Source of the DNA: an uncultured Actinomycetes bacterium
GTDB taxonomy: Bacteria > Actinomycetota > Thermoleophilia > UBA2241
Assembly: GCA_963767005.1 (NCBI GenBank)
Contig: CAVYCN010000002.1
Span: forward strand, 14,272 to 78,271
Direction of reading: 5' to 3'
DNA length: 64,000 bases
The notes beneath the pieces were generated by a model. The model worked only from the letters and a program-made list of their open reading frames with translations. It was not told the DNA's origin and ran no database searches. This document shows, piece after piece, positions 2,266 through 55,829 of the stretch (position 1 is the stretch's first letter; every line of letters begins with the position of its first letter). The translations under genes were made by a program, and so were the position numbers.

Positions 2266-2449
2266 GCGCGCCGCGCGGTCGCTCGCCGGTCCAGGCGCGC
2301 GACGTAGCCACGCCTGCCTGAGCGGCGACGACGTAGTCGATCGCCGGCACCGGGCGTCCGCTCCCGCCTGTCAGCGACCCGCGCCTGCGGGTATACTTGG
2401 CCATGCGATCCTCCGGGCATCTTCTGCCGGCCGTCGCGTTCCTTTCGTG

Positions 2450-5021: not shown

Positions 5022-5196
5022 GGCACCCCCCGTATCGTGGTCGTCGGCCGGTCGGCCTCAGGCGGTGCCGGCCTCAGCGGTGCGCATCACAGGAGAAGAC
5101 GCAGGCGGCCCGCCGGTTTCTTCACGCAGGCGCGGCGCGGCCACGGCCGGGAGGGGCAGACGAGCGGACGAGGAGCCGTGGTGCACGACCCTGCGC

Positions 5197-6120: not shown

Positions 6121-6345
6121 GGCATCACCCTACCTGCCGTCGACAGCGTACGGGCTGAAGTTCTGGATGAGGGGGGCGTCCCCTGCGCAGTGACGGCGCG
6201 GCCGCGTAGCCCTCTCGCCGCCGGGCCGCGACGAGCGCACCGTCGCCTCGATGCCGGGCCATGACGACGCCGTCTCTGGGGCGCCGCCGCTTGCGAATGG
6301 TATCGTTGGCAGATCGTCACGATCCGAGGGGGAGGTCGCACGGGC

Positions 6346-7638
6346 ATGGGCGGGCAGCGTACGGTGGGCATCAACGGCCTTGGCCGCATCGGGAAGCTCG
6401 CGCTCTGGTACGAGCTCGCGCACGACGACGTCGACCGCATCGTGGTGAACGTGGGCCGGCCGGTCGGCACGTCGCTCGACGCCGTCGTGCAGTACATCGC
6501 AAAGGACAGCACCTACGGGCCGCTGCATCGCTACCTGCACGGCCAGTCCGGCGTGCGCGACGTGCGCGTGGTCGACGAGGCGCGCGGCCTGCTCGCCGCC
6601 TACGGCAAGGAGATCGTCGTGCTGCGCGAGGCGCGCGACCCGGCGGCCATCCCGTGGCGCGAGCACGGCGTCGCGCTCGTCGTCGAGTGCACCGGGCGGT
6701 TCCGCGACCCGCAGGCCGAGGCCGACGCCGCCAGGGGCTCGCTGCGCGGCCACCTGACGGCCGGCGCCCGCGCCGTCGTCGTGAGCTCGCCGTTCAAGAA
6801 CAGGCAGGAGGCGCCGCTGCCCGACGATGCCGCCATCCTCATCTCGGGCATCAACGACTGGCAGTTCGACCCGGCCAGGCACCGGCTCGTGTCGGCCGCG
6901 TCGTGCACGACGACCGCCCTCGCCCACATGATGCGCCCCCTGCTCGAGCGCGACCTCACGCGCAACATGCTCACCGCCGGCATGAGCACGGTGCACGCCG
7001 CGACCAACTCGCAGCCGGCGCTCGACGCCGTGCCCGGCGCCGGCGCCAAGGACCTGCGCAAGACGCGCGGCGCCCTGGGCAACGTCGTGCTCACCTCGAC
7101 CAACGCCGCGGCCACGCTCGAGCAGGTCCTGCCCGAGATCGCCCGCGTCGGTTTCATGGCCGACTCGGTGCGCATCCCCACGGCGACCGTGAGCCTCATC
7201 ATCCTGAACGTGACCTTCCAGAACGAGGCCCTGCCCGACGGCGGCGTGGTGGTCGAGCGCGAGGCGATCAATCAGATCTACCGCGAAGCGGCCGCGGGCG
7301 CGGGCCGTGGCCTCGTCGTGTTCAGCGACGAGCAGAACGTGTCGTGCGACATGGTCGGCGAGAACGCCGCCGTGGTGATCGAGGGCGTCGAGACGCACAC
7401 GCGCACCGGCTTCATCGACCTGGTCGTGCCCGAGTGCGAGCCGGTCCAGGAGGGCGTGGCGGTCGCCGGCGGCGGGCCGGCCGCCGGCCGGCCCGCCGCC
7501 GGCGACGATCCCGTGCCGCACCGCACCGTGCGGGTGCCGCTCACTCACGTGAAGATCTTCGGCTGGTACGACAACGAGATGGGCAGCTACACGCAGCGGC
7601 TCGGCGAGCTCACCGCGATGGTCGCCCAGCGCATGTAG
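6346..7638 (+). CDS. glyceraldehyde-3-phosphate dehydrogenase-family protein, atypically long (430 aa)
   Basis: N-terminal INGLGRIGK Rossmann motif, catalytic ASCTTT motif, C-terminal WYDNEMGYS-like motif; about 95 extra residues relative to canonical GAPDH. Confidence 0.65.
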   Translation: MGGQRTVGINGLGRIGKLALWYELAHDDVDRIVVNVGRPVGTSLDAVVQYIAKDSTYGPLHRYLHGQSGVRDVRVVDEARGLLAAYGKEIVVLREARDPAAIPWREHGVALVVECTGRFRDPQAEADAARGSLRGHLTAGARAVVVSSPFKNRQEAPLPDDAAILISGINDWQFDPARHRLVSAASCTTTALAHMMRPLLERDLTRNMLTAGMSTVHAATNSQPALDAVPGAGAKDLRKTRGALGNVVLTSTNAAATLEQVLPEIARVGFMADSVRIPTATVSLIILNVTFQNEALPDGGVVVEREAINQIYREAAAGAGRGLVVFSDEQNVSCDMVGENAAVVIEGVETHTRTGFIDLVVPECEPVQEGVAVAGGGPAAGRPAAGDDPVPHRTVRVPLTHVKIFGWYDNEMGSYTQRLGELTAMVAQRM

Positions 7639-17593: not shown

Positions 17594-19596
17594 GCGGTCC
17601 TCCCTGGATCGTCTGTGTGTCGGTCGGTGAGGGGAGTGGCAGGTGATGCCGCGGGTCGGTCCGCGGGCGACGCGGTGACTGCCGCCGTGGAACCGTCGGC
17701 GCTCGCCGGCGCAGCCGCGCTCACGAGCTCCACGAAGGCCTCGTCGAAGCTGGCCGGTACAACCCTCAGATGGGCCGCGACGCGGCGCGCGTCGAGGGCC
17801 GCGGCCACGCGCTCCGCGTCGCCGCCCGCCACGCGAACGCGCCGGCCGGACAAGGCGGTCGGCAGGCCGGCGTCGTCGAGCGCGCGGAAGGCGTCGTCCC
17901 AGCGTTCGGCTTCGACCTCGACGGTGGTGGCGTCGCCGACGATGTCGGCGATCGTGCCGGCGGCGACCACGCGGCCGGCCGCCATGAGGACGAGACGGTC
18001 GCACTGCTCGGCCTCGTCCATGGCGTGCGTCGTGACGAGCACGCCGGCGCCGCCCGCGGCGGCACCCTGGATCGTCTCCCATAGGCGCGCCCGGGCGAGG
18101 GCCGCGACGCCCGACGTGGGTTCGTCGAGCACGAGCAGCTCGGGCCGGTGGGCGAGCGCGGCGGCGAAGGCGAGGCGGCGGCGCAGGCCGAGCGGCAGGT
18201 CGCGCACCAGCGCACCGCCGCGCGCGGCGAGCTCGGCATCGGGTGCGGCGGCGCACTCGTGCGCGGGCGCCGCCGGGTCGGCGAAGGCGCGGCGCGAGAA
18301 GGCCAGGTTCTCGTCGACCGTGAGGTCGTCCCACACGCCCAGGCTCTGGGGGACGTAGCCCAGGCGCAGGCGGCCGGCGCGCGAGGGCGGCGCACCGAAC
18401 AGATCGACCGCGCCCGCGCTGGGCCGCAGCAGGCCGAGCAGGAGGCGGATCAGCGTCGTCTTGCCGGCGCCGTTGGCGCCGAGCAGGCCGACGGTCTCGC
18501 CGGGCCGCACGGTCAGGTCGACGCCGTCGACGGCGACGAAGTCACCGAACCGGCGCGTGACGCCGCGCGTGGCCGCGAGGGCCGTTTCGTCGCCGCGCGT
18601 CGGCAGAGGTGACGTCGGGGCGTGCGGCGCTGCAGCGGCGGTCGCGGCCGCCCCCTCGTTGGACGGTGAGCCGGCGCCGCCGCGCGCCAGAGCGGCGACG
18701 ATGACGGCGTCGGTCAAGTCGGCGGTGACAGGGAGGGCGCCGGCCGGGGCGGCCGGCGCAGTCGCGGCGCGGTCGGGCGCGGCGGGGGGCAGCCAGAGGT
18801 GCAGGTGGCGGCCGCGGGGCCAGGCGGCCCAGCCGCCTGGCCCCGCGGCTGCCACCGTCTCGACGACGCGCCCCGGCAGTCGCGCGACGATCTCGTCGGG
18901 CGTGCCCGCGGCGAGCACGCGACCGTCGTCGAGCACGAGGACGGTCGCGGCTCGTTCGGCCTCGTCGAGGTAGGTGGTCGCCATGACGACGGCGGTGCCC
19001 GCGGCTGCGGCGCCGGCGATCAGCCGCCAGATGTCGGCGCGGCTCACGGGATCGACGCCGGTCGTGGGCTCGTCGAGCACCAGCAGCGCGGGATCGTGCA
19101 CCGCGGCGAGGACGAAGGCGAGCTTCTGGCGCATGCCGCCCGACAGGTGCCCGGCGAGGCGGTCGCGGGCTGCGTCGAGACCGGCGCGGGCGAGCAGCGG
19201 CGCGGCCCGCGTCTCGAGCTGCGCGCCGAGCAGGCCGTAGGCGCCGGCGACGAAGTCGAGGTTCTCGGTCACGGTCAAGTCGTCGTAGGCCCCGGCGCCG
19301 GCCGACACGAAGCCGACGTCGCCGGCCGGCGGCCGCATGACGCGGCCGGCGGCGGGGGCGTGGAGACCGGCGAGCGTGCGCAGCAGGGTCGACTTGCCCG
19401 CGCCGTCGCCGCCGACCACGGCCGTCACCGCGCCGGCCGGAGCGTGCAGCGAGACGCCGGCGAGCGCGACACGGTGGCCGAACCGCACCTCGACGTGGCG
19501 CAGCCCCCAGGCGGGGTCTCCGGCGGTAGCCGGAGCCTCGGCTTGGGGCGCCGCCGGGCCGGCCCCGACCGTATCGATGGTCGGTCCGCCGCTCAC
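17590..19596 (-). CDS. ABC transporter ATP-binding protein with two tandem ATPase domains
   Basis: two Walker A motifs (GGDGAGKST, GANGAGKTT), two signature motifs (LSGGMRQK, LPLGLRRRL); GTGA start/stop overlap with the permease gene. Confidence 0.8.
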   Translation of the reverse strand: MSGGPTIDTVGAGPAAPQAEAPATAGDPAWGLRHVEVRFGHRVALAGVSLHAPAGAVTAVVGGDGAGKSTLLRTLAGLHAPAAGRVMRPPAGDVGFVSAGAGAYDDLTVTENLDFVAGAYGLLGAQLETRAAPLLARAGLDAARDRLAGHLSGGMRQKLAFVLAAVHDPALLVLDEPTTGVDPVSRADIWRLIAGAAAAGTAVVMATTYLDEAERAATVLVLDDGRVLAAGTPDEIVARLPGRVVETVAAAGPGGWAAWPRGRHLHLWLPPAAPDRAATAPAAPAGALPVTADLTDAVIVAALARGGAGSPSNEGAAATAAAAPHAPTSPLPTRGDETALAATRGVTRRFGDFVAVDGVDLTVRPGETVGLLGANGAGKTTLIRLLLGLLRPSAGAVDLFGAPPSRAGRLRLGYVPQSLGVWDDLTVDENLAFSRRAFADPAAPAHECAAAPDAELAARGGALVRDLPLGLRRRLAFAAALAHRPELLVLDEPTSGVAALARARLWETIQGAAAGGAGVLVTTHAMDEAEQCDRLVLMAAGRVVAAGTIADIVGDATTVEVEAERWDDAFRALDDAGLPTALSGRRVRVAGGDAERVAAALDARRVAAHLRVVPASFDEAFVELVSAAAPASADGSTAAVTASPADRPAASPATPLTDRHTDDPGRTA

Positions 19597-20897
19597 GTCG
19601 TCGCGACCCCGCCGCCGGCCGCGGCCGGACCGGCGCCGGCCGGCGGCGCGGGCGGCGCGCCCGGCACGTCGCTGCCGAAGGCCGCGGCGCTCGCCGCCCG
19701 CCCGGCCGGTGCCAGGTCGCGCCGGAAGCGCAGCACCGAGAGGCCGAAGATAGCCAGGCCGAGCACGGCCAGCATGAGCAGCGGGAACCAGAGCGCGCTC
19801 GCCGGTTCGCCGCGCACCATGACGCCGCGGGCGATCTTCACGAAGTAGGTGAGCGGCAGCACGTAGGGGATCCAGCGCACGCCGGCGGCCATCGCGTAGA
19901 TGGGAAAGAAGAGGCCCGACAGCAGGATCTGCGGCAGGAGCGTCATCATGGCGAGCTGGATCGCCTGCCCCTGCGTCTGCGAGATGGTCGAGATCAGCAC
20001 GCCGACCCCGAGGGTGACGAACAGGAAGAGCGCCGCGCCCAGCGCGAAGGTGAGCACCGAGCCGCGGAACGGCACGCCGAACAGCGCCATGCCGACGAGC
20101 ACGATCACGACCATGTCGATGGCCGCGATCACGAGGTAGGGCGCGATCTTGCCGACGAACACCTGCCAGGCCTTGAAGGGCATCACGGCGAGCTGCTCGA
20201 GGGTGCCGGCCTGGCGCTCGCGGACCACGCCGAGGGCGGTCGCGACGGTGCCGACGAAGACGAGGATGATGCCGCAGAGGCCCGGGATCATGATGACCGA
20301 CGTCTTGAGCTCGGGGTTGAAGAGCACCTGGGGTGTCGGGAGCGTCACACCGCCGGCCGTCGTGCCGCTCACCGGCGTGCCGGCGGCCGTGCCTCCCACG
20401 ACGCCGACGATGCCCGTGCTCCCCGACTCCGTGCCGCCGATCTTCGTGGCCTGGCCGCTCAGTGCGGCGGCGCTCGAAGCCTTCAGCTCGGTGAAGGCCG
20501 ACACGGCGGCGCGCGCCGCGAACAGCTCGGTGCCGTCGATCAGGATGGCCGCTCGCCCGGTGGCGGATGCGGGCGTGACGATGGCGACGGTCGCGGTGCC
20601 GTCGCGCAGCGCCGCGCGCGCCTGCGCGAGGCCATCGCCCGGGCGCACCGCCAGCACGTCGAGCTGGCCCGGCAGGTGGGCGGCGACCGGCACGGCCAGC
20701 GGTCCGACGACGACGGTCGGCACGTTCTTCACGTCGAAACTCGCCGCGTAGCCGAACACGACGAGGAACAGGACGGGCAGCATGAACAGCAGGGCGACGG
20801 TGCGGCGGTCGCGGCGTAGCTGGCGGAACTCCTTGACGACGATCGCCCACACGGCCGGCCTCCAATTCCGCCGTCCTGACCGCCGCCGCGGCCGCAC
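19593..20897 (-). CDS. ABC-2 type transporter permease
   Basis: 434 aa; N-terminal TM, large extracytoplasmic loop, then 5 TM ABC-2 module. Confidence 0.75.
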   Translation of the reverse strand: MRPRRRSGRRNWRPAVWAIVVKEFRQLRRDRRTVALLFMLPVLFLVVFGYAASFDVKNVPTVVVGPLAVPVAAHLPGQLDVLAVRPGDGLAQARAALRDGTATVAIVTPASATGRAAILIDGTELFAARAAVSAFTELKASSAAALSGQATKIGGTESGSTGIVGVVGGTAAGTPVSGTTAGGVTLPTPQVLFNPELKTSVIMIPGLCGIILVFVGTVATALGVVRERQAGTLEQLAVMPFKAWQVFVGKIAPYLVIAAIDMVVIVLVGMALFGVPFRGSVLTFALGAALFLFVTLGVGVLISTISQTQGQAIQLAMMTLLPQILLSGLFFPIYAMAAGVRWIPYVLPLTYFVKIARGVMVRGEPASALWFPLLMLAVLGLAIFGLSVLRFRRDLAPAGRAASAAAFGSDVPGAPPAPPAGAGPAAAGGGVATT

Positions 20898-20929: not shown

Positions 20930-20953
20930 TGAATTCTACGCATGTTGAATTCT
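20930..20953 (+). promoter_or_regulatory. AT-rich divergent promoter region with direct repeat TGAATTCT-N8-TGAATTCT (candidate operator)
   Basis: only AT-rich stretch in the region; lies between the efflux operon start and the GGDEF gene. Confidence 0.3.
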
Positions 20954-21163
20954 CTGTCAACCGTTCGCCACGGGGCTCCGACGCGCCCGCTGGGGGCCGC
21001 GGCGGCGGTGCCGCGGGACATCAAGTTCTGGCCCGCGCTTGTCGACTACCTACATAGGCGCGCGCGGGTGTGTGGGCAGACTGCTCCAGCCGGATGGACG
21101 CTGCGGATCGCGGGGCGATCGGCCGGCACTCGCGCGCGAAACGATCGACGCAGGGATGCCTTC

Positions 21164-24100
21164 ATGGCAGGGAGCAGGCACGACGAGGAGACCGCCGAGC
21201 GGTTCCTCGTCGACGTCGAGCAGGACAAGCTGCGGGCGCAGGCCCTGCTGGCGCTCGTCGATGCCGCCCCCGGGGCCGTCGACGAGCTCGGCGCCGATCG
21301 CGCCCTGCCGCACATCTGCGCCCGCCTGCTGCGCGCCATGGACTGCACGACGGCGGTGCTCTCGCTCGTCGACTTCGGGCACGACACGCTCGAGTCGGTC
21401 GCCGGCTTCGACGTGAGCGGGGTCCGCACCGCGGTGCGCGGCTCGCGCCCGCTGGCCGACGAACCCCTCGCGGCGCGCGTCATCGCCAATCGCGAGCCGC
21501 TCTTCGCCACACCCGACCCCGGCGCCGAGCAGCACCTGCGCAAGGCGCCGGCGGCACCCCTCGAGGGCGGCTGGCTCGCGCTGCCGCTCGTCGTGCACGG
21601 CGAGAGCGTCGGCATGATCGAGCTGCTCGCGGGGCGGCGTGAGCGGCGCTACACGACGGCTGAGCTCGTGCTGGCCCAGGGCGTCTGTGTGACGATCGCC
21701 CAGGCCGTGATCGACTCGCAGCTCTTCGCCGGCTTCCGGCGCGCGCCGGCCGACGCGGCCGTAGCCGGTGGCGTCGTTGCCGGCGAGGCCGGTCCGCGCG
21801 CCGCCGAGCGCACGCTGGCCGACATCGCCCGGCGCCTGGCCGAGGGTCTCGAGGTCGAGCACTGCGACGTGCTGATCCGTCAAGAGACGTCGGGGGCCGT
21901 CAAGGCCGTCGCGCGCTACCGGACCGGCGACGGCGACCGGGACAGGAGCCTCGGCGACGACCAGATCTACGGTCTCGGCGACGTGGGCGCCCGTGCCCGC
22001 GCCGCCGCCGAGCGCCGCATCGCGACGGCCCACGACGACGACCTCGAGCTGCCGGCCGACGAGCGCGCCGAGATGATCGCCCGCGGTCAGCGCGCCGTCC
22101 TGTACGTGCCCATCGTCGCCGACGACGAGGTCGTCGGCTTTCTCTGCGCGATCGAGCGGCGTCACTCGCGGCGCTTCACCAAGGCCGACGAGACCTTCGC
22201 CGCGCGCCTGGCCGACGAGGCCGGCGTCGCGGTGCAGAGCGCCCGCATCATCGACAGCCTCGACTCGCAGAACCGCGAGCAGCGCCTGCTGCTCGAGACC
22301 GGGGCGGCGATCGCGTCGGCCGGCGACCTGCGGGCGACCCTGTCGACGATCACCGAGCGCCTCGTGCAGACCCTCGGCGTGGCCTGGTCGAACGTCTACG
22401 ACTATCACGCCGACACGCAGGAGCTCGAGGTCATCGCCTACTACCAGGTGCCGAACCTGCCGGTCGACCCCGACTGGATCGGGCGGCGCTTCACGAGCAA
22501 GACGTGGCCCGACGGCCTCGCCGCCGTCGCCGCCAAGCGGCTGCAGACCCACTACTACGACTACTCGCGCCTGTCGTTCGAGGACTTCCAGTCGATGGTG
22601 GCCTGGGGCGAGAAGGCGACGCTGTCGGTCCCGCTGATCTACGGCGACGAGGTCTTCGGCGTGCTCGATGTGGCCGAGTCGCGCTACCCGCGACGCTTCA
22701 CGGCCGACGAGGTCCGCCTCGCCGAGGCGATCGGCGCGCAGGCCGCCGTGGCCCTGCACAACGCCCGCGCGATCGACGAGGCCGAGCGGCGCAACGCCGA
22801 CCTGGCGACCCTGCTCGGAGTGGCCGCCACGCTGAGCGCGGCCGACCGTGGGAGTGTGCCGTCGGCCGTCGCGCGCCACCTGCGCGAGGCCCTGGGCACG
22901 GCGACCGCCGAGGTCTACCAGTACGACGCGGCGCGGCGCGCCCTCGATCTGGTCGCCGCCGACGCCGCCGACGCGGCCGCGTCGCTCCTGCCCGAGACGT
23001 GGTCGGACCGCTACCGGCTGGCCGACGACCCCTTGCTCGGGCGCTGCATCGACGAACGTCGAGTGACGGCCGTACAGGCCGACGACCCCGGGTTGCCCGG
23101 GCCGACCGTGGCCGGTCTCGAGCGCCGCTGCGACGCCGGCGAGCTCTGGGTGCCGATGGTCTACCAGGACGAGGTCCTCGGCCTACTCACGGCCACCGAG
23201 ACGTCGGCCGGCCGGTGCTTCACAAGCGACGAGCTGGAGCTCGCCGGGGGCATCGCCGCTCAGGGCGCGGCCGCGTTGCAGAACGTGCGCGCCTACGAAC
23301 GCCTCGAACGCGAGCGCGCCGCCCTCGCCATCCTCAACCAGCGGCTGTCGGCCTTCGTCGAGCTGTCGGGCCAGATGCGCGGCCTGCTGTCTGAGGAGCG
23401 GCTGCTCGACCTGCTCGGCCGCGTGCTGCACGAGACCCTCGGCTTCAATCAGTGGGTGATCTACCTGCACGAGCCCGACCAGGAGCGCTTCGTCGTGGCC
23501 AAGTCGTTCGGCGGCACGCCCGAGATCGACGAGCACTACCAGCAGACGCCGATCCCGGCACGGGTGATCGCGGGTCTGCTCGACGGGGCGCGGACCATCT
23601 CGCAGTCGCACTTCGTCGACCACCTCCTCCACACCTGGACGGCCGAGGAGAACTACTACCTGCCCGGCGAGGAGCTCGTCGGGGAGCGGCCCGAGGGCGA
23701 GTGGAACCAGTTCGACTCGCTCTTCGTGCCGATGCTCGGCCAGAAGGGCCAGGTGATCGGCTACATCGAGGCGTACGACCCGATCGACCGCCAGCGTCCG
23801 ACCGACGAGGTCGTGCGCCTGATCGAGGTGTTCGCCAGCAAGGCGGCCAGCAACATCGAGCTGCAGCGGGCCTACGGCGAGCTCGAGCAGCAGTCGCGCA
23901 CCGACGGTCTCACCGCCCTCTACAACCACCGCTACTTCCAGGAGCGCCTGGCGTCGGAGATCGCCCGCGCGCAGCGCTTCGAGAAGCCGCTCGCCCTGCT
24001 CATGATCGACGTCGACAACTTCAAGGAGTTCAACGACGCCTTCGGCCACCCCCAGGGCGACCGTCTGCTCAAGTCGCTCGCCGACCTGCTCCTCGCCCAG

Positions 24101-24445
24101 ACCCGGGCCCAGGTCGACGTGGTGGCGCGCTACGGCGGCGAGGAGTTCGTCGTGCTGCTGCTCGAGACAGCCCCCGGCGACGCCGCCGCGGCGGCCGAAC
24201 GCCTGCAGGACCTGGTCGAGGGGCGCCGGCCGGCGGTGGCCGTCGCCGAGGCGATCCGCGAGGCGACCCAGGCGCAGATGTTCGACACCGCCGGCGGCAA
24301 GGCGGCCGGCGTCACGGTCAGCGTCGGCGTCGCCACGTTCCCCGATCACGCATCGACCGCCGACCAACTCGTCGCCAACGCCGACAAGGCGCTCTACCTG
24401 GCCAAGCGCCTGGGCAAGAACCGCACCTGCGTGTATCGTCAGTAG
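21164..24445 (+). CDS. multi-GAF domain diguanylate cyclase (GGDEF)
   Basis: about 1090 aa; at least 5 GAF-like repeats then a C-terminal GGDEF domain (RYGGEEF, LYLAKRLGKNR). Confidence 0.8.
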   Translation: MAGSRHDEETAERFLVDVEQDKLRAQALLALVDAAPGAVDELGADRALPHICARLLRAMDCTTAVLSLVDFGHDTLESVAGFDVSGVRTAVRGSRPLADEPLAARVIANREPLFATPDPGAEQHLRKAPAAPLEGGWLALPLVVHGESVGMIELLAGRRERRYTTAELVLAQGVCVTIAQAVIDSQLFAGFRRAPADAAVAGGVVAGEAGPRAAERTLADIARRLAEGLEVEHCDVLIRQETSGAVKAVARYRTGDGDRDRSLGDDQIYGLGDVGARARAAAERRIATAHDDDLELPADERAEMIARGQRAVLYVPIVADDEVVGFLCAIERRHSRRFTKADETFAARLADEAGVAVQSARIIDSLDSQNREQRLLLETGAAIASAGDLRATLSTITERLVQTLGVAWSNVYDYHADTQELEVIAYYQVPNLPVDPDWIGRRFTSKTWPDGLAAVAAKRLQTHYYDYSRLSFEDFQSMVAWGEKATLSVPLIYGDEVFGVLDVAESRYPRRFTADEVRLAEAIGAQAAVALHNARAIDEAERRNADLATLLGVAATLSAADRGSVPSAVARHLREALGTATAEVYQYDAARRALDLVAADAADAAASLLPETWSDRYRLADDPLLGRCIDERRVTAVQADDPGLPGPTVAGLERRCDAGELWVPMVYQDEVLGLLTATETSAGRCFTSDELELAGGIAAQGAAALQNVRAYERLERERAALAILNQRLSAFVELSGQMRGLLSEERLLDLLGRVLHETLGFNQWVIYLHEPDQERFVVAKSFGGTPEIDEHYQQTPIPARVIAGLLDGARTISQSHFVDHLLHTWTAEENYYLPGEELVGERPEGEWNQFDSLFVPMLGQKGQVIGYIEAYDPIDRQRPTDEVVRLIEVFASKAASNIELQRAYGELEQQSRTDGLTALYNHRYFQERLASEIARAQRFEKPLALLMIDVDNFKEFNDAFGHPQGDRLLKSLADLLLAQTRAQVDVVARYGGEEFVVLLLETAPGDAAAAAERLQDLVEGRRPAVAVAEAIREATQAQMFDTAGGKAAGVTVSVGVATFPDHASTADQLVANADKALYLAKRLGKNRTCVYRQ

Positions 24446-47930: not shown

Positions 47931-50270
47931 ATGAGCGGCACCGATCGCGAGGCGCGCGCGGCGCGCTCGGCCGTGGCCGAGGCGCTCCTGCGTGGCCTGA
48001 ACGAGCCGCAGCGCGAGGCCGTCGAGCATTTCGAGGGGCCGCTCCTCATCCTGGCCGGCGCCGGCTCGGGCAAGACGCGCGTGCTCGCCCACCGTGTCGC
48101 CTACCTCATCAAGGTGCGCCGCGTGCGTCCCGACGAGGTACTCGCCATCACCTTCACGAACAAGGCGGCGGGCGAGATGCGCGAGCGCATCGGCGCCCTG
48201 GTCGGCCCGATGGTGCGCGTCATGTGGGTGTCGACCTTCCACTCCATGTGCGCCCGCATCCTGCGGCGCGAGGCCGAACGGCTCGGCTACCGGCCGGGCT
48301 TTTCGATCTACGACGCGGACGACGCCAAGCGCCTGGTCAAGCGCTGCCTGGCCGAGCTCGACCTCGACGACAAGCGCTTCACGCCCGACGCCGTGGCCCG
48401 GGTCATCTCCGACGCCAAGAACCGCCTGCAGGACCCGGTCGCCTTCCGCGAGCAGCTCGGCCGCGGCCATTTCAACCGCGCGACGGCCGATGTCTACGAG
48501 CTCTACGAGAAGAAGCTCGTGGAGATGAGCGCCATGGACTTCGACGACCTGCTCATGAAGATGGTGAACCTGCTCGAGATCTGTCCCGACCGCCTCGAAC
48601 ACTATCGCCGCACGTTCCGCTTCATCACGGTCGACGAGTATCAGGACACGAACCACGCTCAGTACCGCATCGCCAACCTTCTGGCCGGCGAGCGCGGCAA
48701 CCTGGCGGTCGTCGGCGACGACGACCAGTCGATCTACTCGTGGCGCGGCGCCGACATCCGCAACATCCTCGAGTTCGAGCGCGACCACCCCGACGCCAAG
48801 GTGATCCGCCTCGAGCAGAACTACCGCTCGACGACGAGCATCCTCGACGTGGCCAACGCCGTGGTGTCGAACAACCGCCGGCGCAAGGGCAAGCGGCTGT
48901 GGACCGCGCGCGGCACCGGCCGGCCGGTGCGCGTGGCCGAGGTCGCCGACGAGCACGCCGAGGCGCGTTTCGTGGCAAGCGAGGTGCGCCGCGTGCTCGA
49001 CGAGGGCGTCGGGGGCGAGGGGCAGGGCGACGCCCTGCCCCTCGCCCCGCGCGACATCGCCGTGCTCTACCGCACGAACGCCCAGTCGCGCGTGCTCGAG
49101 GAGGAGTTCGGGCGCTACGCGATCGCCTACCAGGTCATCGGCGGCACCCGCTTCTACGAGCGCGCCGAGGTGAAGGACGCGCTCGCCTACCTCGCCGTGG
49201 TCGCCAACCCGGCCGACGAGCAGCGGTTGCTGCGCATCGTGAACACGCCGCGCCGCGGCCTGGGCCAGACGACGATGGCGCGCCTGCAGAACGAGGCCCT
49301 GACGACGGGAGAGACCCTGTGGAGCGTGATCGAGCGCGCCGACGACGTGCCGGGGCTGACGGCGGCCGCGCAGGTCTCGCTCGCGTCGCTGCGCGCGCTG
49401 ATCGACACCTGGCGCGCGCTCTCGCCGCAGCTCACCTCGGTGGCCGCCTTCGTGCGCCGCGTGCTCGACGAGAGCGGCTACTCGGCCATGCTCGCGGCTC
49501 AGAACACGCTCGAGGCCGAGGGTCGCGTCGAGAACCTCGAGGAGCTCGTCGGCGTGGCGGCCGAATACGACCAGCGCACCGAGGAGCGCACGCTCGACGG
49601 CTTTCTGCAGGAGATCTCGCTGTACTCCGACGTCGACGCCATGGCCGACACCAGCGAGCTCATCACCTTCATGACGCTGCACAACGCCAAGGGCCTCGAG
49701 TTTCCCGTCGTGTTCATCACCGGCATGGAGGAGGGGGTGTTCCCGCACCAGCGTGCGCTCGACGAGCAGAACCTCGAGGAGGAGCGCCGCCTGGCGTACG
49801 TCGGCATCACCCGCGCCATGGACCGGCTCTACCTGCTCCACGCGCGCGCCCGCACCCTGTGGGGCGGCAGCATGTACGGCCTGCCCTCGCGCTTTCTGAC
49901 CGAGATCCCTGCCGACCTCGTCGAGGTCACTCGCGAGGCCGGGCCCGCCTACGGTGGCGGCTGGTCGGGCGGCGGCGCACGTCGCGGCCGGGAGCGGGGC
50001 GGCTGGAGCGACCGCGACGAGTGGCGTGAGCGCGACGACGAGGGCATCGCCGGTTCGGGACGGCGCATCACGGGCCTGGAGGACAGGTCGGCGGGCGCCG
50101 TGGTCGAGCAGTTCTTCGCGCCCGGCGACCGGGTGCTGCACGCCACGCTCGGCGAGGGCACCGTGACGGCCGCCGAGGAGAGCGGCATCATCGTGGTGCG
50201 CTTCGAGAACGACGGCTCGGAGCGTCGGCTGATGGCGACCATCGCGCCGCTGCGCAAGCTGCGCGCCTGA
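47931..50270 (+). CDS. pcrA: ATP-dependent DNA helicase PcrA/UvrD
   Basis: Walker A AGAGSGKTRVL, helicase motifs II-VI, about 100-aa C-terminal extension. Confidence 0.85.
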   Translation: MSGTDREARAARSAVAEALLRGLNEPQREAVEHFEGPLLILAGAGSGKTRVLAHRVAYLIKVRRVRPDEVLAITFTNKAAGEMRERIGALVGPMVRVMWVSTFHSMCARILRREAERLGYRPGFSIYDADDAKRLVKRCLAELDLDDKRFTPDAVARVISDAKNRLQDPVAFREQLGRGHFNRATADVYELYEKKLVEMSAMDFDDLLMKMVNLLEICPDRLEHYRRTFRFITVDEYQDTNHAQYRIANLLAGERGNLAVVGDDDQSIYSWRGADIRNILEFERDHPDAKVIRLEQNYRSTTSILDVANAVVSNNRRRKGKRLWTARGTGRPVRVAEVADEHAEARFVASEVRRVLDEGVGGEGQGDALPLAPRDIAVLYRTNAQSRVLEEEFGRYAIAYQVIGGTRFYERAEVKDALAYLAVVANPADEQRLLRIVNTPRRGLGQTTMARLQNEALTTGETLWSVIERADDVPGLTAAAQVSLASLRALIDTWRALSPQLTSVAAFVRRVLDESGYSAMLAAQNTLEAEGRVENLEELVGVAAEYDQRTEERTLDGFLQEISLYSDVDAMADTSELITFMTLHNAKGLEFPVVFITGMEEGVFPHQRALDEQNLEEERRLAYVGITRAMDRLYLLHARARTLWGGSMYGLPSRFLTEIPADLVEVTREAGPAYGGGWSGGGARRGRERGGWSDRDEWRERDDEGIAGSGRRITGLEDRSAGAVVEQFFAPGDRVLHATLGEGTVTAAEESGIIVVRFENDGSERRLMATIAPLRKLRA

Positions 50271-50305
50271 CCGAGAGCCGCAGCCGCGCGGCGTTTCGGC
50301 GCGCG

Positions 50306-50932
50306 TCAGGGGCCGCTGCCGGCGTCGTAGACCAGCCAGCGTCCGCCGGCGTGCCGCAGGCACATGAAGACCAGGGTCTCGCCGTCGTTCCAAGCCGACA
50401 CTGAGCTCGGCCGGATGTCGATCGTCATGGTGAACTCGAGCGTGGTGAGCGCCGGCGGCGCGGGGTCGACCTGACGCACGTACGACACGACGCGCGCGCG
50501 CTCGATGCCGAAATAGGCGGCGGCGCGGCCGCCGCGGACGGCGGCGGCGCAGGTGGAGTCGGACGTGACCACCGCGAGCAGCCCGGCGTAGCGGTGCTCG
50601 TCGATCAGCCGCCAGTAGCGCGTCGCCGCGCGCAGCGCACCGGCGGGGACGGGGCCCGACGTGACGACGGCGCCGGGCGCGGGCGCGGTGGCGCCGGCGC
50701 CGGGCGCGCCGGGCGACGTGACGCCCGGCGTGGGGGAGGCGACCACGAGGTTCGCCGGCGAGCCGCAGGCGGCGAGCCACGTGGCGGGGGCGCAGGCTGC
50801 GAGGGCGGCCGCCGCAACGACGGCCGCCGCGAGCGCGACGCTGGCGACGCCGGCGCCGCGTGCGCGGCGCCGGCGCGTAAGCACGGCGCCGCGGCCGCGG
50901 TACGGCGCCGGTGCTGGAGATGCCTTGCTCAT
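50306..50932 (-). CDS. hypothetical lipoprotein
   Basis: GGAGGA RBS plus ATG; signal peptide with LAAC lipobox. Confidence 0.45.
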   Translation of the reverse strand: MSKASPAPAPYRGRGAVLTRRRRARGAGVASVALAAAVVAAAALAACAPATWLAACGSPANLVVASPTPGVTSPGAPGAGATAPAPGAVVTSGPVPAGALRAATRYWRLIDEHRYAGLLAVVTSDSTCAAAVRGGRAAAYFGIERARVVSYVRQVDPAPPALTTLEFTMTIDIRPSSVSAWNDGETLVFMCLRHAGGRWLVYDAGSGP

Positions 50933-51130
50933 GCGGTCCTCCCGGGGACGGTCGGGCGATGCGCCAAACCCCACCACAGCGGCCCCGCGCTGTACAGGAT
51001 GACAATGTCCGGCCCGCGCGCTTGCTGCGCGTCCTGCGCCGCAGAATGTTCGATTGTGTTGGCCGCTGTGAGCGGAAAGCGTGCGGCGCTCGTCGTCGAG
51101 CTGGGAGACAAACGAAAATAAATGCACGAT

Positions 51131-51160
51131 TGACCACACATTCGCGCAGGGCTACAATGT
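51131..51160 (+). promoter_or_regulatory. sigma70-like promoter TTGACC-N17-TACAAT
   Basis: AT-rich block AAACGAAAATAAATG immediately upstream; about 430 nt before the next CDS. Confidence 0.4.
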
Positions 51161-51324
51161 GGGTCGTCGAGCACGCTTGGCTGTCGGCCCCGTCGCGGTG
51201 AGCGCGGGACGATCGAAGCGCGCGAGCGGCGGACGCGAGTGGGATGTACTCGTACGACGCGGTTGCTTGCAGGATCTGTGCGAGCAGGATGTTCACGCGT
51301 CCGCCGAGCGCGATCGTCGCCCGG

Positions 51325-51480
51325 GACCACCCGGGACTGCGGCGCGCCGACGCGAAAGAGTCCGCGGCAAGACTCGTTCTCCCCCCGAACGAGCCGAGCC
51401 CCCCTCGGGCCGCGGATGTCACGAGGGCCGGGGCCGGAGGCGCACCAGCGCCGACCCCCCGGCCCTCGTCTTGTTCCACG
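51325..51480 (+). ncRNA. candidate structured sRNA/leader with two C-rich hairpin loops (6C-RNA-like) ending in a 13-bp terminator-like stem
   Basis: CCCGGG-acca-CCCGGG hairpin; CCGCGG...CCGCGG outer stem enclosing CGTTC-uCCCCCC-GAACG and CCGAG-CCCCC-CTCGG; then ACGAGGGCCGGGG-N22-CCCCGGCCCTCGT plus CUUGUU. Confidence 0.3.
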
Positions 51481-51596
51481 ATCCCAGCGCCGGCGCCCGG
51501 CCCGCGGCGTAGTAGAGTTGCGCTGCGCCCACCCCGGGCCACGCGCGTGGGCCACTCCGTCGCCCGCACGCCGCAAACGACCAGGAGGGTCCGTTC

Positions 51597-52373
51597 ATGG
51601 CAGTCGAGGTCAGTCGCGACGGCGCCGTCGCCGTCGTCACGGTCGCTCGTCCCGAGGTGCTGAACGCGCTGAACTCGGCGACCAACGAGGAGCTGCTGCG
51701 CGTCGCCGGCGACCTCGGCCGCGACCACGAGGTCCGCGCCGTCGTTCTGACCGGCGCCGGCGACAAGGCCTTCGTGGCCGGCGCCGACATCAAGGAGTTC
51801 CGCGGCATGAGCCCCGAGGAGGCGCGCCAGTCGTCGTGGCTCGGGCGCCAGGCGATGGCCGCGATCGGGGCCGCCCCGCAGCCCTGGATCGCCGCCGTCA
51901 ACGGCTTCGCCCTGGGCGGCGGCTGCGAGCTCGCCCTCGCCTGCGACATCCGCTTCGCCGCCGAGAACGCCCGCTTCGGGCAGCCCGAGGTCACCCTCGG
52001 CATCACGCCGGGCTGGGGCGGCACCCAGCGTCTGCCGCGCGAGGTCGGCAACGGCTGGGCCTCGTACCTGTGCCTGAGCGGCCGCCTGATCGACGCGGCT
52101 GAGGCGCTGCGCATCGGCCTCGTGCAGCGCGTGGTCGCGCGCGACGAGCTCATGCCGGCGGCGCTCGAGCTGGCCGCCGAGATCGCCGCGCGGCCGCCGC
52201 TCGCCGTGCGCTACATCAAGTCGCAGATCCACTACGCCCTGAGCGTCGACATCGAGGCCGGTCACGAGATCGAGCGCGACCTCTTCGCCCTGACGTTCGC
52301 CAGCGAGGATCGCGCCGAGGGCATGGACGCCTTCCTCGAGAAGCGCGCGCCGCGCGGGTTCGAAGGCCGTTAG
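51597..52373 (+). CDS. enoyl-CoA hydratase/isomerase (crotonase family)
   Basis: ALNSAT...AVNGFALGGGCELALACDIRFAAENARFGQPEVTLGI. Confidence 0.85.
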   Translation: MAVEVSRDGAVAVVTVARPEVLNALNSATNEELLRVAGDLGRDHEVRAVVLTGAGDKAFVAGADIKEFRGMSPEEARQSSWLGRQAMAAIGAAPQPWIAAVNGFALGGGCELALACDIRFAAENARFGQPEVTLGITPGWGGTQRLPREVGNGWASYLCLSGRLIDAAEALRIGLVQRVVARDELMPAALELAAEIAARPPLAVRYIKSQIHYALSVDIEAGHEIERDLFALTFASEDRAEGMDAFLEKRAPRGFEGR

Positions 52374-52452
52374 GCCGTCGAGCGACTGCGTCGTCGCCGC
52401 TCGGTCAGGCGTCAGGTCGTCGTCGCTCAGTCAAACGTGACGGTGTCGCCGC

Positions 52453-54267: not shown

Positions 54268-55188
54268 GTGAGAGTGGAGAGGTTCTCCGACAGGCTGGCC
54301 GCGAGCATCCTGCGCCGGCGTAGCGTGGTCTGCGTCGGCATCGACCCCGACCTCGCGCGGCTGCCCGACGACCTGCGTGCCGCCTGGGCGGCCCGCGTCG
54401 GCGAGCTCGGCGAGGCGGGCGCGGCGGCGGCCTGCTGCGCCGACTTCGCGACCGGCCTGATCGACGCGGTCGCCGAGCTGGCCGCCTGCGTCAAGCCGCA
54501 GGCCGCTTTCTTCGAACAGTACGGGGCGCCCGGCTGGGAGGCCCTGCGCCGCGTCGTGGCCTGCGCCCACGAGCACGACCTGCCGGTCATCCTGGACGTG
54601 AAGCGCGCCGACATCGGCTCGACCTCGACCGCCTACGCGGCCGCCTGCTTCGGCGGGGCGCCGTCGCTGGCCGGCGCGCCGCTGCCCGGCCTCGACGCCG
54701 ACGCCGTAACCGTCAATCCGTACCTCGGGGCCGACGGCCTCACGCCGTTCGTCGAGCGCTGTGACGAGGGTCGCGGAGTGTTCGTGCTGACGCGCACGAG
54801 CAACCCCGGCGGCGTCGAGCTGCAGGAGCGCGACTGCGAGGGGCGGCCGCTCTACCTGCGGGTGGCCGACATGATCGCCCGTCTCGGCGCCGCGCGGCTC
54901 GGCGCGCACGGGTACAGCGACGTCGGCGCGGTGGCCGGCGCCACCGCGCCGGAGCCGCTTGCCGCCGTGCGCGCGGCTTTGCCGCACGCCTTTCTGCTCG
55001 TCCCCGGGTTCGGGGCACAGGGCGCCGGGCCCGAAGCGCTGGCCGGCCTCGCGTCGGGCGAGGCGGCCGGTTTCGTGGTGAATGCGTCACGGTCGATCAT
55101 CTACGCGTGGCGGGAGCGCGGCGGCGACTATCGCAGCGCCGCCGCCGCGGCGGCGGCCGAGATGCGTGACGCGATCGGGGGGCTCTGA
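54268..55188 (+). CDS. pyrF: orotidine-5'-phosphate decarboxylase (type 2, long form)
   Basis: ILDVKRADIGST motif; about 300 aa form typical of actinobacteria. Confidence 0.8.
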   Translation: MRVERFSDRLAASILRRRSVVCVGIDPDLARLPDDLRAAWAARVGELGEAGAAAACCADFATGLIDAVAELAACVKPQAAFFEQYGAPGWEALRRVVACAHEHDLPVILDVKRADIGSTSTAYAAACFGGAPSLAGAPLPGLDADAVTVNPYLGADGLTPFVERCDEGRGVFVLTRTSNPGGVELQERDCEGRPLYLRVADMIARLGAARLGAHGYSDVGAVAGATAPEPLAAVRAALPHAFLLVPGFGAQGAGPEALAGLASGEAAGFVVNASRSIIYAWRERGGDYRSAAAAAAAEMRDAIGGL

Positions 55189-55829
55189 TGAACGACGAGA
55201 CGAACGGACGGGACCGGCACGACCCCGAGGCGACGGGCCCGCTCTGGCCGCTGCCCGACGATCCCGCGGCCGACGACGACCGCACACGGCGGGCGCGCGG
55301 CGTTCCGTCCGCGGAGGAACTCACGGCGGTCGGCGCCGCTCGCGGTCGGGCGCCCGACGGCGCCGAGACGGTCGTGCTGTCGCAGCAATCGACTCGCCGC
55401 GCGACCGCCGAGCCCACGCGCGTGGCCGCCGACGGCGCTCGCGACTGGCTCGACGAGACTCGGATCGATGCGCCGCCGCCGGTGGCGCCCAGGCGGCGCG
55501 CCGGGCGCCCGCGGGCGCCGCGCCGCGGTCCGGCCTGGCCGCGCATCCTGGCGCCGGTCGTGCTCCTGGTCGCCGTGCTCGCCGTCGTCACGATCGGCGT
55601 GCACACCGGCATGCTCGGTCACAAGCCGGCGAGCAGCCCTTCGCCGACCACCGTCGCCACCCACAAGGCCGCGTCGAAGTACGTCTACTACCACGTGCGC
55701 AAGGGCGACACGGTCTCGACGATCGCCGCCAAGTACGGCATCTCCGTCGAGCGGCTCATGACCCTCAATCCCAAGGCCTCGACCACGATCGTCGTGGGCC
55801 AACGGCTGAAGGTGCCCAGGCTGCAGTGA
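55188..55829 (+). CDS. LysM domain membrane protein
   Basis: single TM (ILAPVVLLVAVLAVVTI) and C-terminal LysM (YVYYHVRKGDTVSTIAAKYGISVERLMTLNP). Confidence 0.7.
   Translation: MNDETNGRDRHDPEATGPLWPLPDDPAADDDRTRRARGVPSAEELTAVGAARGRAPDGAETVVLSQQSTRRATAEPTRVAADGARDWLDETRIDAPPPVAPRRRAGRPRAPRRGPAWPRILAPVVLLVAVLAVVTIGVHTGMLGHKPASSPSPTTVATHKAASKYVYYHVRKGDTVSTIAAKYGISVERLMTLNPKASTTIVVGQRLKVPRLQ

What the first reader, a model, noticed from the sequence alone, without database searches (positions are those of the whole stretch)
51131..51480. Promoter plus structured RNA with two C-rich loops upstream of an enoyl-CoA hydratase
A clean TTGACC-N17-TACAAT promoter preceded by an AT-rich UP-like block sits about 430 nt before the next CDS. 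The intervening transcript would contain: CCCGGG-acca-CCCGGG; a CCGCGG/CCGCGG-closed domain with two hairpins whose loops are uCCCCCC and CCCCC, reminiscent of the actinobacterial 6C sRNA; and then a 13-bp perfect stem (ACGAGGGCCGGGG...CCCCGGCCCTCGT) followed by CUUGUU. The six-frame ORF here (51244-51663) has no coding character. This could be an independent sRNA or a cis-regulatory leader (attenuator) for the crotonase gene.
Basis: seen in the sequence. Interest (0 to 1): 0.55.

Follow-up and report, generated by a model that had tools for sequence, protein, structure and literature searches.

The report
Clade-specific small RNA with 6C-like loops
This is a conserved gene for a structured, non-coding RNA of about 310 nt in uncultured soil and peat Thermoleophilia; it has its own strong promoter and ends in a long hairpin, and it displays two C-rich loops like the actinobacterial 6C regulatory RNA, but it is not a recognised member of that family and is not a leader of the neighbouring enoyl-CoA hydratase gene.

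Summary
Window 51130-51158 holds TTGACC-17-TACAAT, one of only two such sites in 64 kb (0 expected). A transcript of about 310 nt (~51165-51475) would follow.

The stretch from promoter to hairpin is conserved at 72-89% identity in 28 loci (20 distinct sequences). These come from one clade of uncultured Thermoleophilia-like genomes and from peat and soil metagenomes. It always lies between a small divergent gene and the crotonase gene, and the flanking intergenic DNA does not align.

The parts are:
- a 5' hairpin;
- a near-invariant three-way-junction domain with no Rfam match;
- a variable linker;
- a 9-bp clamp holding two hairpins with UCCCCCC and CCCCC loops;
- a long GC hairpin.

Five of the 7 pairs in the first C-loop hairpin show compensatory changes. 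G-U wobble changes fix the + strand as the RNA strand.

The crotonase gene keeps its own TGCGgTAGAGT promoter in all 47 related loci, with or without the RNA. One relative nested inside the clade has lost the RNA. So this is an independent small RNA, not an attenuator.

Rfam 6C scores only 17 bits against a threshold of 47, and the 6C gene neighbourhood is absent.

Best reading: a 6C-type base-pairing small RNA carrying an extra 5' domain. That mechanism is inferred, not shown.

The parts
51109..51158 (+). Promoter: an A-rich UP-like block (51109-51123), the -35 TTGACC (51130-51135), a 17-nt spacer and the -10 TACAAT (51153-51158).
   Evidence: The pattern occurs twice in 64 kb against 0 expected. 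GCACGATTGACCACAC and TACAATG are invariant and the spacer differs at only a few positions in 20 distinct sequences. Typical promoters of this lineage are -10-only, of the form TGCGG-TAnAnT, so this one is unusually close to the full consensus.
51165..51475 (+). Predicted primary transcript of about 310 nt. The ends are inferred: the start from the -10 position, the end from the terminal hairpin plus CUUGUU.
   Evidence: Fold z-score -3.77. nhmmer finds the full-length RNA in 26 loci and truncated copies at contig ends in 2 more, with E-values from 1e-39 to 1e-104. There is no conserved ORF.
51174..51220 (+). 5' hairpin H1, with a conserved base and a variable apical stem.
   Evidence: In the lower helix, 91% of cells are paired. 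In the apical helix, 6 of 7 pairs have changes on both sides, but that part of the alignment is poor (64% paired).
51221..51312 (+). Domain H2: the closing stem CGCG(G)/(C)CGCG, the 9-bp stem GCGGACGCG/CGCGUCCGC, and a three-way junction carrying the hairpins GAGUGGGAUGUACUCG and GYUYGC...GCGAGC. The junction bases are near-invariant.
   Evidence: Cells are 97-100% paired in helices 4-7. The only changes are one-sided G-U wobbles (A-U to G-U in 6 sequences, C-G to U-G in 2-3, G-C to G-U in 2), which are tolerated only in a + strand RNA. No Rfam match at E<=10.
51320..51335 (+). Variable linker hairpin (CCCGGG-ACCA-CCCGGG in the window).
   Evidence: Its sequence differs between relatives, and it is deleted in L082, L083 and L090. 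It is probably dispensable.
51360..51417 (+). 6C-like module. A 9-bp clamp (51360-51368 with 51409-51417) encloses hairpin 1 (51373-51393, loop UCCCCCC) and hairpin 2 (51394-51408, loop CCCCC).
   Evidence: Model R1 scores 70-99 bits in all 28 loci and finds no other copy in 975 kb. In hairpin 1, 5 of 7 pairs have compensatory changes on both sides; the clamp and hairpin 2 are invariant. Overall 96.7% of cells are paired, against 27-51% when partners are slid. The C runs are predicted to be mostly unpaired in the full-length ensemble.
51421..51475 (+). Terminal GC-rich hairpin (13-bp perfect lower stem 51421-51433 with 51457-51469) plus the weak U-containing tail CUUGUU. It is the presumed intrinsic terminator and 3'-end protector.
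   Evidence: -30 to -47 kcal/mol in every member. The apical stem covaries: G-C changes to C-G in 6 sequences and A-U to G-C in 2. The strict terminator scan finds nothing because there is no U run. One subgroup has no U tail at all.
51513..51518 (+). Not part of the RNA. This is the -10 element (TAGAGT) of the crotonase gene's own promoter, and it marks the downstream boundary of the RNA gene.
   Evidence: TAGAGT, usually in the form TGCG(G/A)TAGAGT, lies 35-84 nt upstream of the crotonase ATG in all 47 related loci, with or without the RNA. The tmRNA promoter has the same style.

Best explanation
This is an independent gene for a non-coding RNA of about 310 nt.

**Transcription (inferred from sequence)**
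- A housekeeping-sigma promoter (TTGACC-17-TACAAT plus an A-rich upstream block), unusually strong for this lineage, drives transcription from about 51165.
- The RNA ends at a long GC hairpin at about 51475.

**Fold (shown by conservation and covariation)**
- The RNA folds into separate modules: a 5' hairpin, a highly conserved three-way-junction domain, a dispensable linker hairpin, and a 9-bp clamp that presents two short hairpins.
- The loops of those two hairpins are runs of unpaired C's.

**Mechanism (inferred by analogy with 6C, RsaE/RoxS and sX13, not shown here)**
- The RNA most likely acts in trans.
- The two C-rich loops would serve as seeds that pair with G-rich, Shine-Dalgarno-like stretches in mRNA leaders. 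This would block translation or change mRNA stability without a chaperone.
- The 5' domain would be an accessory module for stability, processing or partner binding. A processed 3' product of about 115 nt (51355-51475) is possible.

The crotonase gene next door is only a neighbour.
For: **Shown**
- The promoter is real and rare and near-invariant across 20 distinct sequences.
- Conservation starts at the promoter and stops at the hairpin, and the flanks do not align.
- 28 loci share the same architecture.
- Covariation supports C-loop hairpin 1 (5 of 7 pairs), the terminal hairpin apex and H1. Wobble-only changes in H2 fix the strand.
- There is no coding potential.
- The crotonase gene has its own conserved promoter in all 47 loci.
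- Relatives with the same gene order lack the RNA.
- The RNA-bearing loci form one clade, with one nested loss.
- The C runs are unpaired in the predicted ensemble: about 0.9 for loop 1 and about 0.8 for loop 2.

**From the literature**
- The C-rich loops of 6C pair with G-rich ribosome-binding sites without a chaperone (PMC6486639).
- 6C is driven by a strong SigA promoter with good -35 and -10 elements (PMC5014011).
- The 6C motif is two hairpins, each with a run of at least 6 C's in its loop (PMC1950547).
Against: - There are no expression data, so neither end of the transcript is mapped.
- No target was found. The best in-window match is the G6 stretch before the LysM gene (9 bp, -23 kcal/mol). 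It lies in the last codons of the upstream gene and does not track the presence of the RNA.
- The clamp and hairpin 2 never vary, so covariation says nothing about them.
- The Rfam 6C model does not recognise the module (about 17 bits against 47).
- Half of the conserved RNA, the 5' domain, has no role in this mechanism. Its near-invariant junction bases suggest that it binds something specific.
- The terminal hairpin has little or no U tail, so some read-through into the crotonase gene is possible.
Confidence: 0.55

Rival explanations
1. It is a protein-binding or sequestering RNA. Examples would be an Ms1- or 6S-like RNA that binds RNA polymerase, or a decoy for a protein that binds C-rich RNA. 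In this reading the conserved three-way-junction domain is the functional core and the C loops are protein contacts.
For: - The length (about 310 nt) and the very strong housekeeping promoter resemble Ms1, which is about 300 nt (PMC9130861).
- The junction bases of the 5' domain are near-invariant, which is typical of specific ligand or protein sites.
- No mRNA target was identified.
- A protein partner was also raised as a possibility for C. glutamicum 6C (PMC5014011, discussion).
Against: - The consensus fold is modular, not a long rod with a central bubble.
- No Rfam 6S or other family matches.
- The Ms1 hallmark neighbour, a HAD-IB hydrolase, is absent. The only HAD gene nearby belongs to the trehalose-phosphatase family and lies beyond the crotonase gene on the other strand.
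- Unpaired C runs displayed on short hairpins are the known seed design of base-pairing small RNAs.
Confidence: 0.2
2. It is a cis-acting leader or attenuator. Transcription from 51165 would read through into the crotonase gene, and the terminal hairpin would act as a regulated terminator, possibly controlled by the 5' domain as a sensor.
For: - The RNA is on the same strand as the crotonase gene and is always immediately upstream of it in all 28 loci.
- The terminal hairpin has a weak U tail or none.
- The 5' arm of that hairpin (CGAGGG) could alternatively pair with CCCUCG of hairpin 2. This comes from reading the sequence only.
Against: - A conserved TAGAGT -10 element (usually TGCGgTAGAGT) lies between the hairpin and the crotonase ATG in every locus. 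The same element serves the gene in about 20 relatives that lack the RNA.
- L079 lost the RNA but kept the crotonase gene and its promoter.
- In L006, L009 and L021 the crotonase gene starts about 100 nt after the end of pcrA.
- No riboswitch or leader family matches.
- The distance from the hairpin to the ATG varies from about 100 to 200 nt and that spacer is not conserved.
Confidence: 0.08
3. It is a true but strongly diverged orthologue of 6C RNA that has moved in the genome and gained a 5' extension. This rival concerns ancestry; the mechanism would be the same as in the best explanation.
For: - The module fits the verbal definition of 6C (PMC1950547).
- The host is an Actinomycetota lineage.
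- RF01066 is the only biologically sensible weak hit.
- S. coelicolor 6C also gives several transcripts with different start and stop sites (PMC5014011).
Against: - The score is 17 bits against 47. The window alignment pairs the model's second hairpin with this RNA's first.
- An enclosing clamp is absent from the Rfam consensus shown.
- The gene neighbourhood is not shared.
- The RNA is restricted to one shallow clade, and outgroups with the same gene order lack it. That pattern suggests a recent origin or a relocation.
- C-rich seed loops have arisen independently several times (RsaE/RoxS, sX13; from my own knowledge).
Confidence: 0.15

Closest known systems
6C RNA (Rfam RF01066; M. tuberculosis B11/ncRv13660c, C. 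glutamicum cgb_03605)
   Same: - Two adjacent short hairpins whose loops are runs of about six unpaired C's.
- An actinobacterial host.
- A strong housekeeping-type promoter with good -35 and -10 elements.
- A GC-rich 3' hairpin.
- The expected mode of action: C loops pairing with G-rich mRNA leaders without a chaperone.
   Different: - It fails the covariance model (about 17 bits against 47).
- The hairpins are much shorter (7 and 5 bp) and are enclosed by a 9-bp clamp not seen in the Rfam consensus.
- The module is the 3' third of a roughly 310-nt RNA with a conserved 150-nt 5' domain.
- It is not next to the chromosome-partitioning or pilus genes, or the phosphatase gene, reported beside 6C.
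- It is confined to one clade of uncultured Thermoleophilia-like bacteria.
RsaE/RoxS (Firmicutes) and sX13 (Xanthomonas): small RNAs with C-rich loops (from my own knowledge)
   Same: Several C-rich loops are displayed on stable hairpins as seeds against G-rich, Shine-Dalgarno-like motifs.
   Different: There is no sequence or model similarity: sX13 scores only 10 bits on L095, which is noise. The size, host phylum and domain layout all differ.
Ms1 RNA (MTS2823), the actinobacterial RNA that binds the RNA polymerase core
   Same: It is about 300 nt long, is presumably abundant because of its strong promoter, and comes from an actinobacterial host.
   Different: It has no rod-with-bubble fold and no HAD-IB hydrolase neighbour. 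Sequence comparison with Ms1 could not be done, and binding to RNA polymerase is untested.

Membership tests
6C RNA (RF01066) | Score at or above the Rfam gathering threshold (47 bits) for the 6C covariance model | tested here: not met
   No hit at the gathering threshold in the whole window. Scores are 17.7 bits (E 2.1) on window 51351-51404 with the hairpins out of register, 17.1 bits on L083, and no 6C hit on L095.
6C RNA (RF01066) | Two hairpins, each with a run of at least 6 C's in its loop (PMC1950547) | tested here: met
   Hairpin 1 has the loop UCCCCCC, with 6 unpaired C's in all members except L095, which has 5. Hairpin 2 has a run of 6 C's, of which 5 are in the loop and 1 closes the stem; the run is 5 in L016 and 7-9 in L007, L029 and L095. 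So the feature is met for hairpin 1 and borderline for hairpin 2.
6C RNA (RF01066) | Covariation in the stems | tested here: inconclusive
   In hairpin 1, 5 of 7 pairs have changes on both sides. Hairpin 2 and the clamp never vary.
6C RNA (RF01066) | A gene neighbourhood near chromosome-partitioning or pilus-assembly genes (PMC1950547) | tested here: not met
   The neighbours are pcrA, a small protein with no Pfam match, an enoyl-CoA hydratase, a trehalose-phosphatase-family gene and an OMP decarboxylase-family gene. No partitioning or pilus-assembly domain appeared among the 40 window proteins scanned.
6C RNA (RF01066) | A stand-alone transcript of about 80-100 nt | not testable with these tools
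   The predicted primary transcript is about 310 nt. Processing to about 115 nt is possible but there are no expression data.
6C RNA (RF01066) | C-rich loops pair with G-rich mRNA leaders (PMC6486639) | not testable with these tools
   The loops are predicted to be unpaired. The only in-window candidate target was rejected.
Ms1 RNA | Neighbourhood with a HAD-IB hydrolase gene (also annotated 'inhibition of morphological differentiation' or phosphoserine phosphatase) (PMC9130861) | tested here: not met
   The nearest HAD gene matches Pfam PF02358 (Trehalose_PPase). It is separated from the RNA by the crotonase gene and lies on the opposite strand.
Ms1 RNA | A 6S-like rod with a central bubble plus terminal hairpins, about 300 nt long | tested here: not met
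   The length fits. However, the consensus and individual folds give independent modules with no conserved pairing between the 5' and 3' ends.
Ms1 RNA | Binds the RNA polymerase core | not testable with these tools
   This needs an experiment.
6S RNA | A match to an Rfam 6S model | tested here: not met
   No 6S hit at the gathering threshold or at E<=10.
Transcription attenuator or riboswitch leader of the crotonase gene | It is the only promoter-proximal element of the regulated gene and is retained wherever the gene is | tested here: not met
   A separate conserved TAGAGT -10 element lies between the hairpin and the ATG in all 47 loci. The RNA is absent from about 20 relatives with the same gene order and from L079, which is nested inside the clade.

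The most novel reading that the evidence does not exclude
This is a composite regulatory RNA of a kind not yet described. An unknown, near-invariant three-way-junction domain that binds a protein, a ligand or RNA polymerase is fused to a 6C-type double C-loop effector. The 5' domain would then control, deliver or be regulated by the seed module. Such an RNA would either be the first view of how 6C-type RNAs look in deep-branching Actinomycetota, or an independent invention of the C-loop design.
Probability: 0.2. Interest if true: 0.6.

Novelty: new variant of a known kind. Interest (0 to 1): 0.42.

Why it matters
Small-RNA biology in Actinomycetota rests on a handful of RNAs (6C, Ms1, MrsI, Mcr7) from cultured Actinomycetes. 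To my knowledge no small RNA has been described in Thermoleophilia, which are abundant in soils and peat.

This locus gives a well-defined new RNA family: 20 distinct sequences, two covariance models, and exact boundaries for its promoter and terminal hairpin. It reuses the double C-loop design of 6C in a different scaffold.

If the design is convergent, it strengthens the idea that G-C-rich loop-to-leader pairing is the general solution for small RNAs in high-GC bacteria that lack Hfq. If the family is homologous to 6C, it pushes 6C back to a deep actinobacterial branch and shows a long form.

The conserved 5' domain is a separate unknown that is worth probing. The family could be submitted to Rfam as it stands.

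Tried and rejected
1. **Rfam membership.** I ran the gathering scan on the window, E<=10 scans of 50900-51650, 51335-51485 and 51160-51360, and scans of two relatives. They gave only noise plus about 17 bits for 6C.
2. **Extra copies or more distant homologues.** nhmmer and two covariance models were run over the window and 98 loci (975 kb). They found only the 28 copies in the same gene neighbourhood. The weak hits of 12-26 bits fall inside coding sequences.
3. **A simple scan for paired C-run hairpins** in all loci found nothing convincing elsewhere.
4. **Target guess.** The loop-2 complement GGGGGGCUC lies just before the LysM gene start (55177-55185; -23 kcal/mol). I rejected it because the G run encodes the C-terminus of the upstream gene. 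It is also absent from the RNA-bearing loci L085 and L087 and present in the RNA-less locus L006.
5. **Coding reading of ORF 51244-51663.** Rejected because the start codon is lost in relatives and the alignment has frame-breaking indels.
6. **Ms1 by neighbourhood.** Rejected.
7. **Mobile-element origin.** There is no meaningful match in the plasmid or phage collections.
8. **PcrA tree by straight translation.** It was unusable because several MAG loci have frameshifts, so I used a crotonase tree instead.
9. **LexA or SOS box in the promoter region.** Reading the sequence by eye, I saw none.

Full report
**1. The observation**

TTGACC is at 51130-51135 (one base earlier than stated), followed by a 17-nt spacer and TACAAT at 51153-51158. 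An A-rich block, CAAACGAAAATAAAT, sits at 51109-51123.

- This is the only sigma-70-like site in 50300-52400, against 0.0 expected.
- The looser pattern TTGAC-N17-19-TANAAT occurs only twice in the 64-kb window and never in 100 shuffles.
- Downstream lie CCCGGG-ACCA-CCCGGG (51320-51335) and a 9-bp clamp (51360-51368 with 51409-51417).
- The clamp encloses hairpin 1 (51373-51393, loop UCCCCCC) and hairpin 2 (51394-51408, loop CCCCC).
- A 13-bp perfect stem follows (51421-51433 with 51457-51469), then CUUGUU.
- The 316-nt RNA folds with a z-score of -3.77.

**2. Host and neighbourhood**

The window is part of a 223-kb metagenome contig, ENA ERZ25039473. It has 73% G+C. Its closest relatives are uncultured MAGs labelled Thermoleophilia, Actinomycetes or Actinomycetota, from bog, palsa, fen and Danish soil samples.

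The gene order is as follows:
- a VIT-family gene
- pcrA (47931-50270)
- a small gene with no Pfam match on the minus strand (50306-50935)
- the RNA region
- an enoyl-CoA hydratase gene (51597-52373)
- a trehalose-phosphatase-family gene on the minus strand
- a gene of unknown function
- an OMP decarboxylase-family gene
- a LysM gene
- mraW

This order is shared widely in the lineage. The public gene call leaves 50936-51596 empty.

**3. Conservation**

blastn and nhmmer find the segment from the promoter to the terminal hairpin in nine other species-level genomes, at 72-89% identity. The intergenic DNA on either side does not align.

A metagenome scan with the clamp sequences (AGTCCGCGGCA-N25-45-CGGGCCGCGGATGT) returned 18 more contigs. 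Every one carries the RNA between the small gene and the crotonase gene; 16 hold it in full and two are cut by a contig end. In all there are 28 loci and 20 distinct sequences.

The promoter is near-invariant, including most of its spacer and the A-rich block. Ordinary promoters in this lineage look different. They are -10-only, of the form TGCGG-TAnAnT, as seen upstream of the crotonase gene and the tmRNA gene. The RNA promoter is therefore exceptional and probably very strong.

**4. Structure**

Individual and consensus folds give a modular RNA:
- **H1**, a 5' hairpin (51174-51220).
- **H2** (51221-51312). It has a closing stem, a 9-bp GCGGACGCG/CGCGUCCGC stem and a three-way junction with two small hairpins. 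Its junction bases are near-invariant.
- **A variable linker hairpin**, which is deleted in three members.
- **The clamp with the two C-loop hairpins.**
- **A long GC hairpin**, at -30 to -47 kcal/mol in every member.

On alignments refitted to my covariance models, the counts were:

| Module | Cells paired | Paired when partners slid | Pairs with changes on both sides |
|---|---|---|---|
| C-loop module | 96.7% | 27-51% | 5, all in hairpin 1 (7 pairs) |
| 5' domain | 90.8% | 27-46% | 8 |

- The clamp and hairpin 2 never vary, so covariation says nothing about them.
- The long H2 stems change only by G-U wobbles, which fixes the + strand as the functional RNA strand.
- The apex of the terminal hairpin covaries: G-C changes to C-G in six sequences.
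- In full-length ensembles the C runs stay unpaired, at about 0.9 for loop 1 and about 0.8 for loop 2.
- The ORF at 51244-51663 is not conserved. Its ATG becomes AAG, TTG or ATA, and the alignment has 1- and 2-nt indels.

**5. Independent gene or leader?**

Three results settle this in favour of an independent gene.

- **The crotonase gene has its own promoter.** A TAGAGT element, usually TGCG(G/A)TAGAGT, lies 35-84 nt upstream of the crotonase ATG in all 47 related loci. In RNA-bearing loci it sits downstream of the terminal hairpin. It is also present in every RNA-less relative.
- **Relatives with the same gene order lack the RNA.** In L006, L009 and L021 the crotonase gene starts about 100 nt after pcrA. 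In L008 and others a short spacer holds only the promoter.
- **One nested relative has lost it.** In a crotonase NJ tree the RNA-bearing loci form one clade. L079, which has a 170-nt spacer without the RNA, is nested inside it, which suggests a secondary loss. This is a single-gene tree without support values.

The RNA gene is thus a separable unit with its own promoter and 3' hairpin. The hairpin has little or no U tail, so some read-through cannot be excluded.

**6. Comparison with known families**

- **Rfam release 15.** The only hit at the gathering threshold in the window is tmRNA. There is nothing for the 5' domain even at E<=10.
- **6C (RF01066).** It scores 17.7 bits for the window and 17.1 for L083, and gives no hit for L095, against a threshold of 47. 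The window alignment matches the model's second hairpin to this RNA's first.
- **Verbal definition of 6C.** The module does fit it: two hairpins with loops holding runs of at least 6 C's (PMC1950547). It also shares the strong SigA-type promoter reported for C. glutamicum 6C (PMC5014011).
- **6C neighbourhood.** The usual partitioning or pilus genes are absent.
- **Ms1.** It is about 300 nt and binds the RNA polymerase core, so it matches only in length. Its HAD-IB hydrolase neighbour and its rod-with-bubble fold are not found here.

I therefore file this RNA as 6C-like in design, but not as a member of the 6C family.

**7. Likely mechanism**

In M. tuberculosis the C-rich loops of 6C pair directly with G-rich ribosome-binding regions and repress translation without a chaperone (PMC6486639). 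RsaE/RoxS and sX13 use the same design (from my own knowledge).

Here, two invariant and unpaired C runs are held on a rigid clamp and expressed from a strong promoter. The most likely function is therefore a trans-acting, base-pairing small RNA that targets G-rich, Shine-Dalgarno-like sites.

- **Shown:** the gene, its boundaries, its structure and the loop display.
- **Inferred:** the pairing, the targets and the role of the 5' domain.

My only in-window target candidate failed a comparative check. The near-invariant 5' junction suggests a specific partner, which keeps a protein-binding role alive as the main rival.

**8. Verdict**

This is a real, previously uncatalogued, clade-restricted small-RNA family, and a new variant of the C-rich-loop small-RNA design.
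- I put the chance that it is an independent structured RNA gene at about 0.9.
- I put the chance that it works by 6C-type loop pairing at about 0.55.

It is moderately interesting. It is solid and new for an unstudied class, but not surprising in principle.

Noticed in passing
window 50990-51006: The 17-nt motif CTGTACAGGATGACAAT lies between the small minus-strand gene and the RNA promoter. RNA-less relatives keep it too: L079 has it unchanged, and L008 has the variant CTGTACAGGGTGACGAT. It may be an operator or promoter element for the divergent small gene.
   Followed up: partly
window 51050-51059: A conserved box, GCG(A/T)TT(C/G)TGT (TCGATTGTGT in the window), lies about 70-80 nt upstream of the RNA's -35 element in nearly all RNA-bearing loci; L007 and the L029/L095 pair diverge. 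Its function is unknown.
   Followed up: no
window 51513-51553: The crotonase gene's own promoter (TAGAGT, usually TGCGgTAGAGT) is conserved in 47 loci. Right after it, most RNA-bearing relatives have a small conserved hairpin at the start of the 5' UTR (UGGGCCGAUCGCGGCCCA; GGCCACGCGCGUGGGCC in the window). It may stabilise the mRNA 5' end.
   Followed up: partly
window 2386-2397 and 2449-2798: A tmRNA gene scores 146.7 bits against RF00023. It is preceded by a -10-only promoter, TGCGGGTATACT, in the same style as the crotonase promoter. This suggests that TGCGG-TAnAnT is the usual promoter form of this lineage.
   Followed up: partly
window 20933-20960 (- strand): This is the only other near-consensus promoter in the window: TTGACA-N16-TAGAAT. 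It lies just upstream of the ABC-2 permease gene (19593-20897, minus strand) and overlaps the start of the GAF-GGDEF gene (20942-24445).
   Followed up: no
L079 8000-8065: L079 has no RNA gene. In its place it keeps a long GC hairpin (GGGGGCGGGCGGGGTGGCCGTCGCGACGGCCACCCAGCCCGCCCCC) between the CTGTACAGG motif and the crotonase promoter. It may be a remnant of the lost gene's terminator or a terminator that works in both directions.
   Followed up: no
L015, L026, L029 and L079, pcrA region 5001-7320: Straight translation of pcrA gives 1-12 in-frame stops in these MAG loci. These are probably assembly indels, and they distorted a PcrA tree.
   Followed up: partly
window 55177-55190: The OMP decarboxylase-family gene ends with ...GGGGGGCTCTGATG, which overlaps the LysM gene start (an ATGA overlap). 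The G6 run is perfectly complementary to loop 2 of the RNA, but it does not track the presence of the RNA in relatives.
   Followed up: yes
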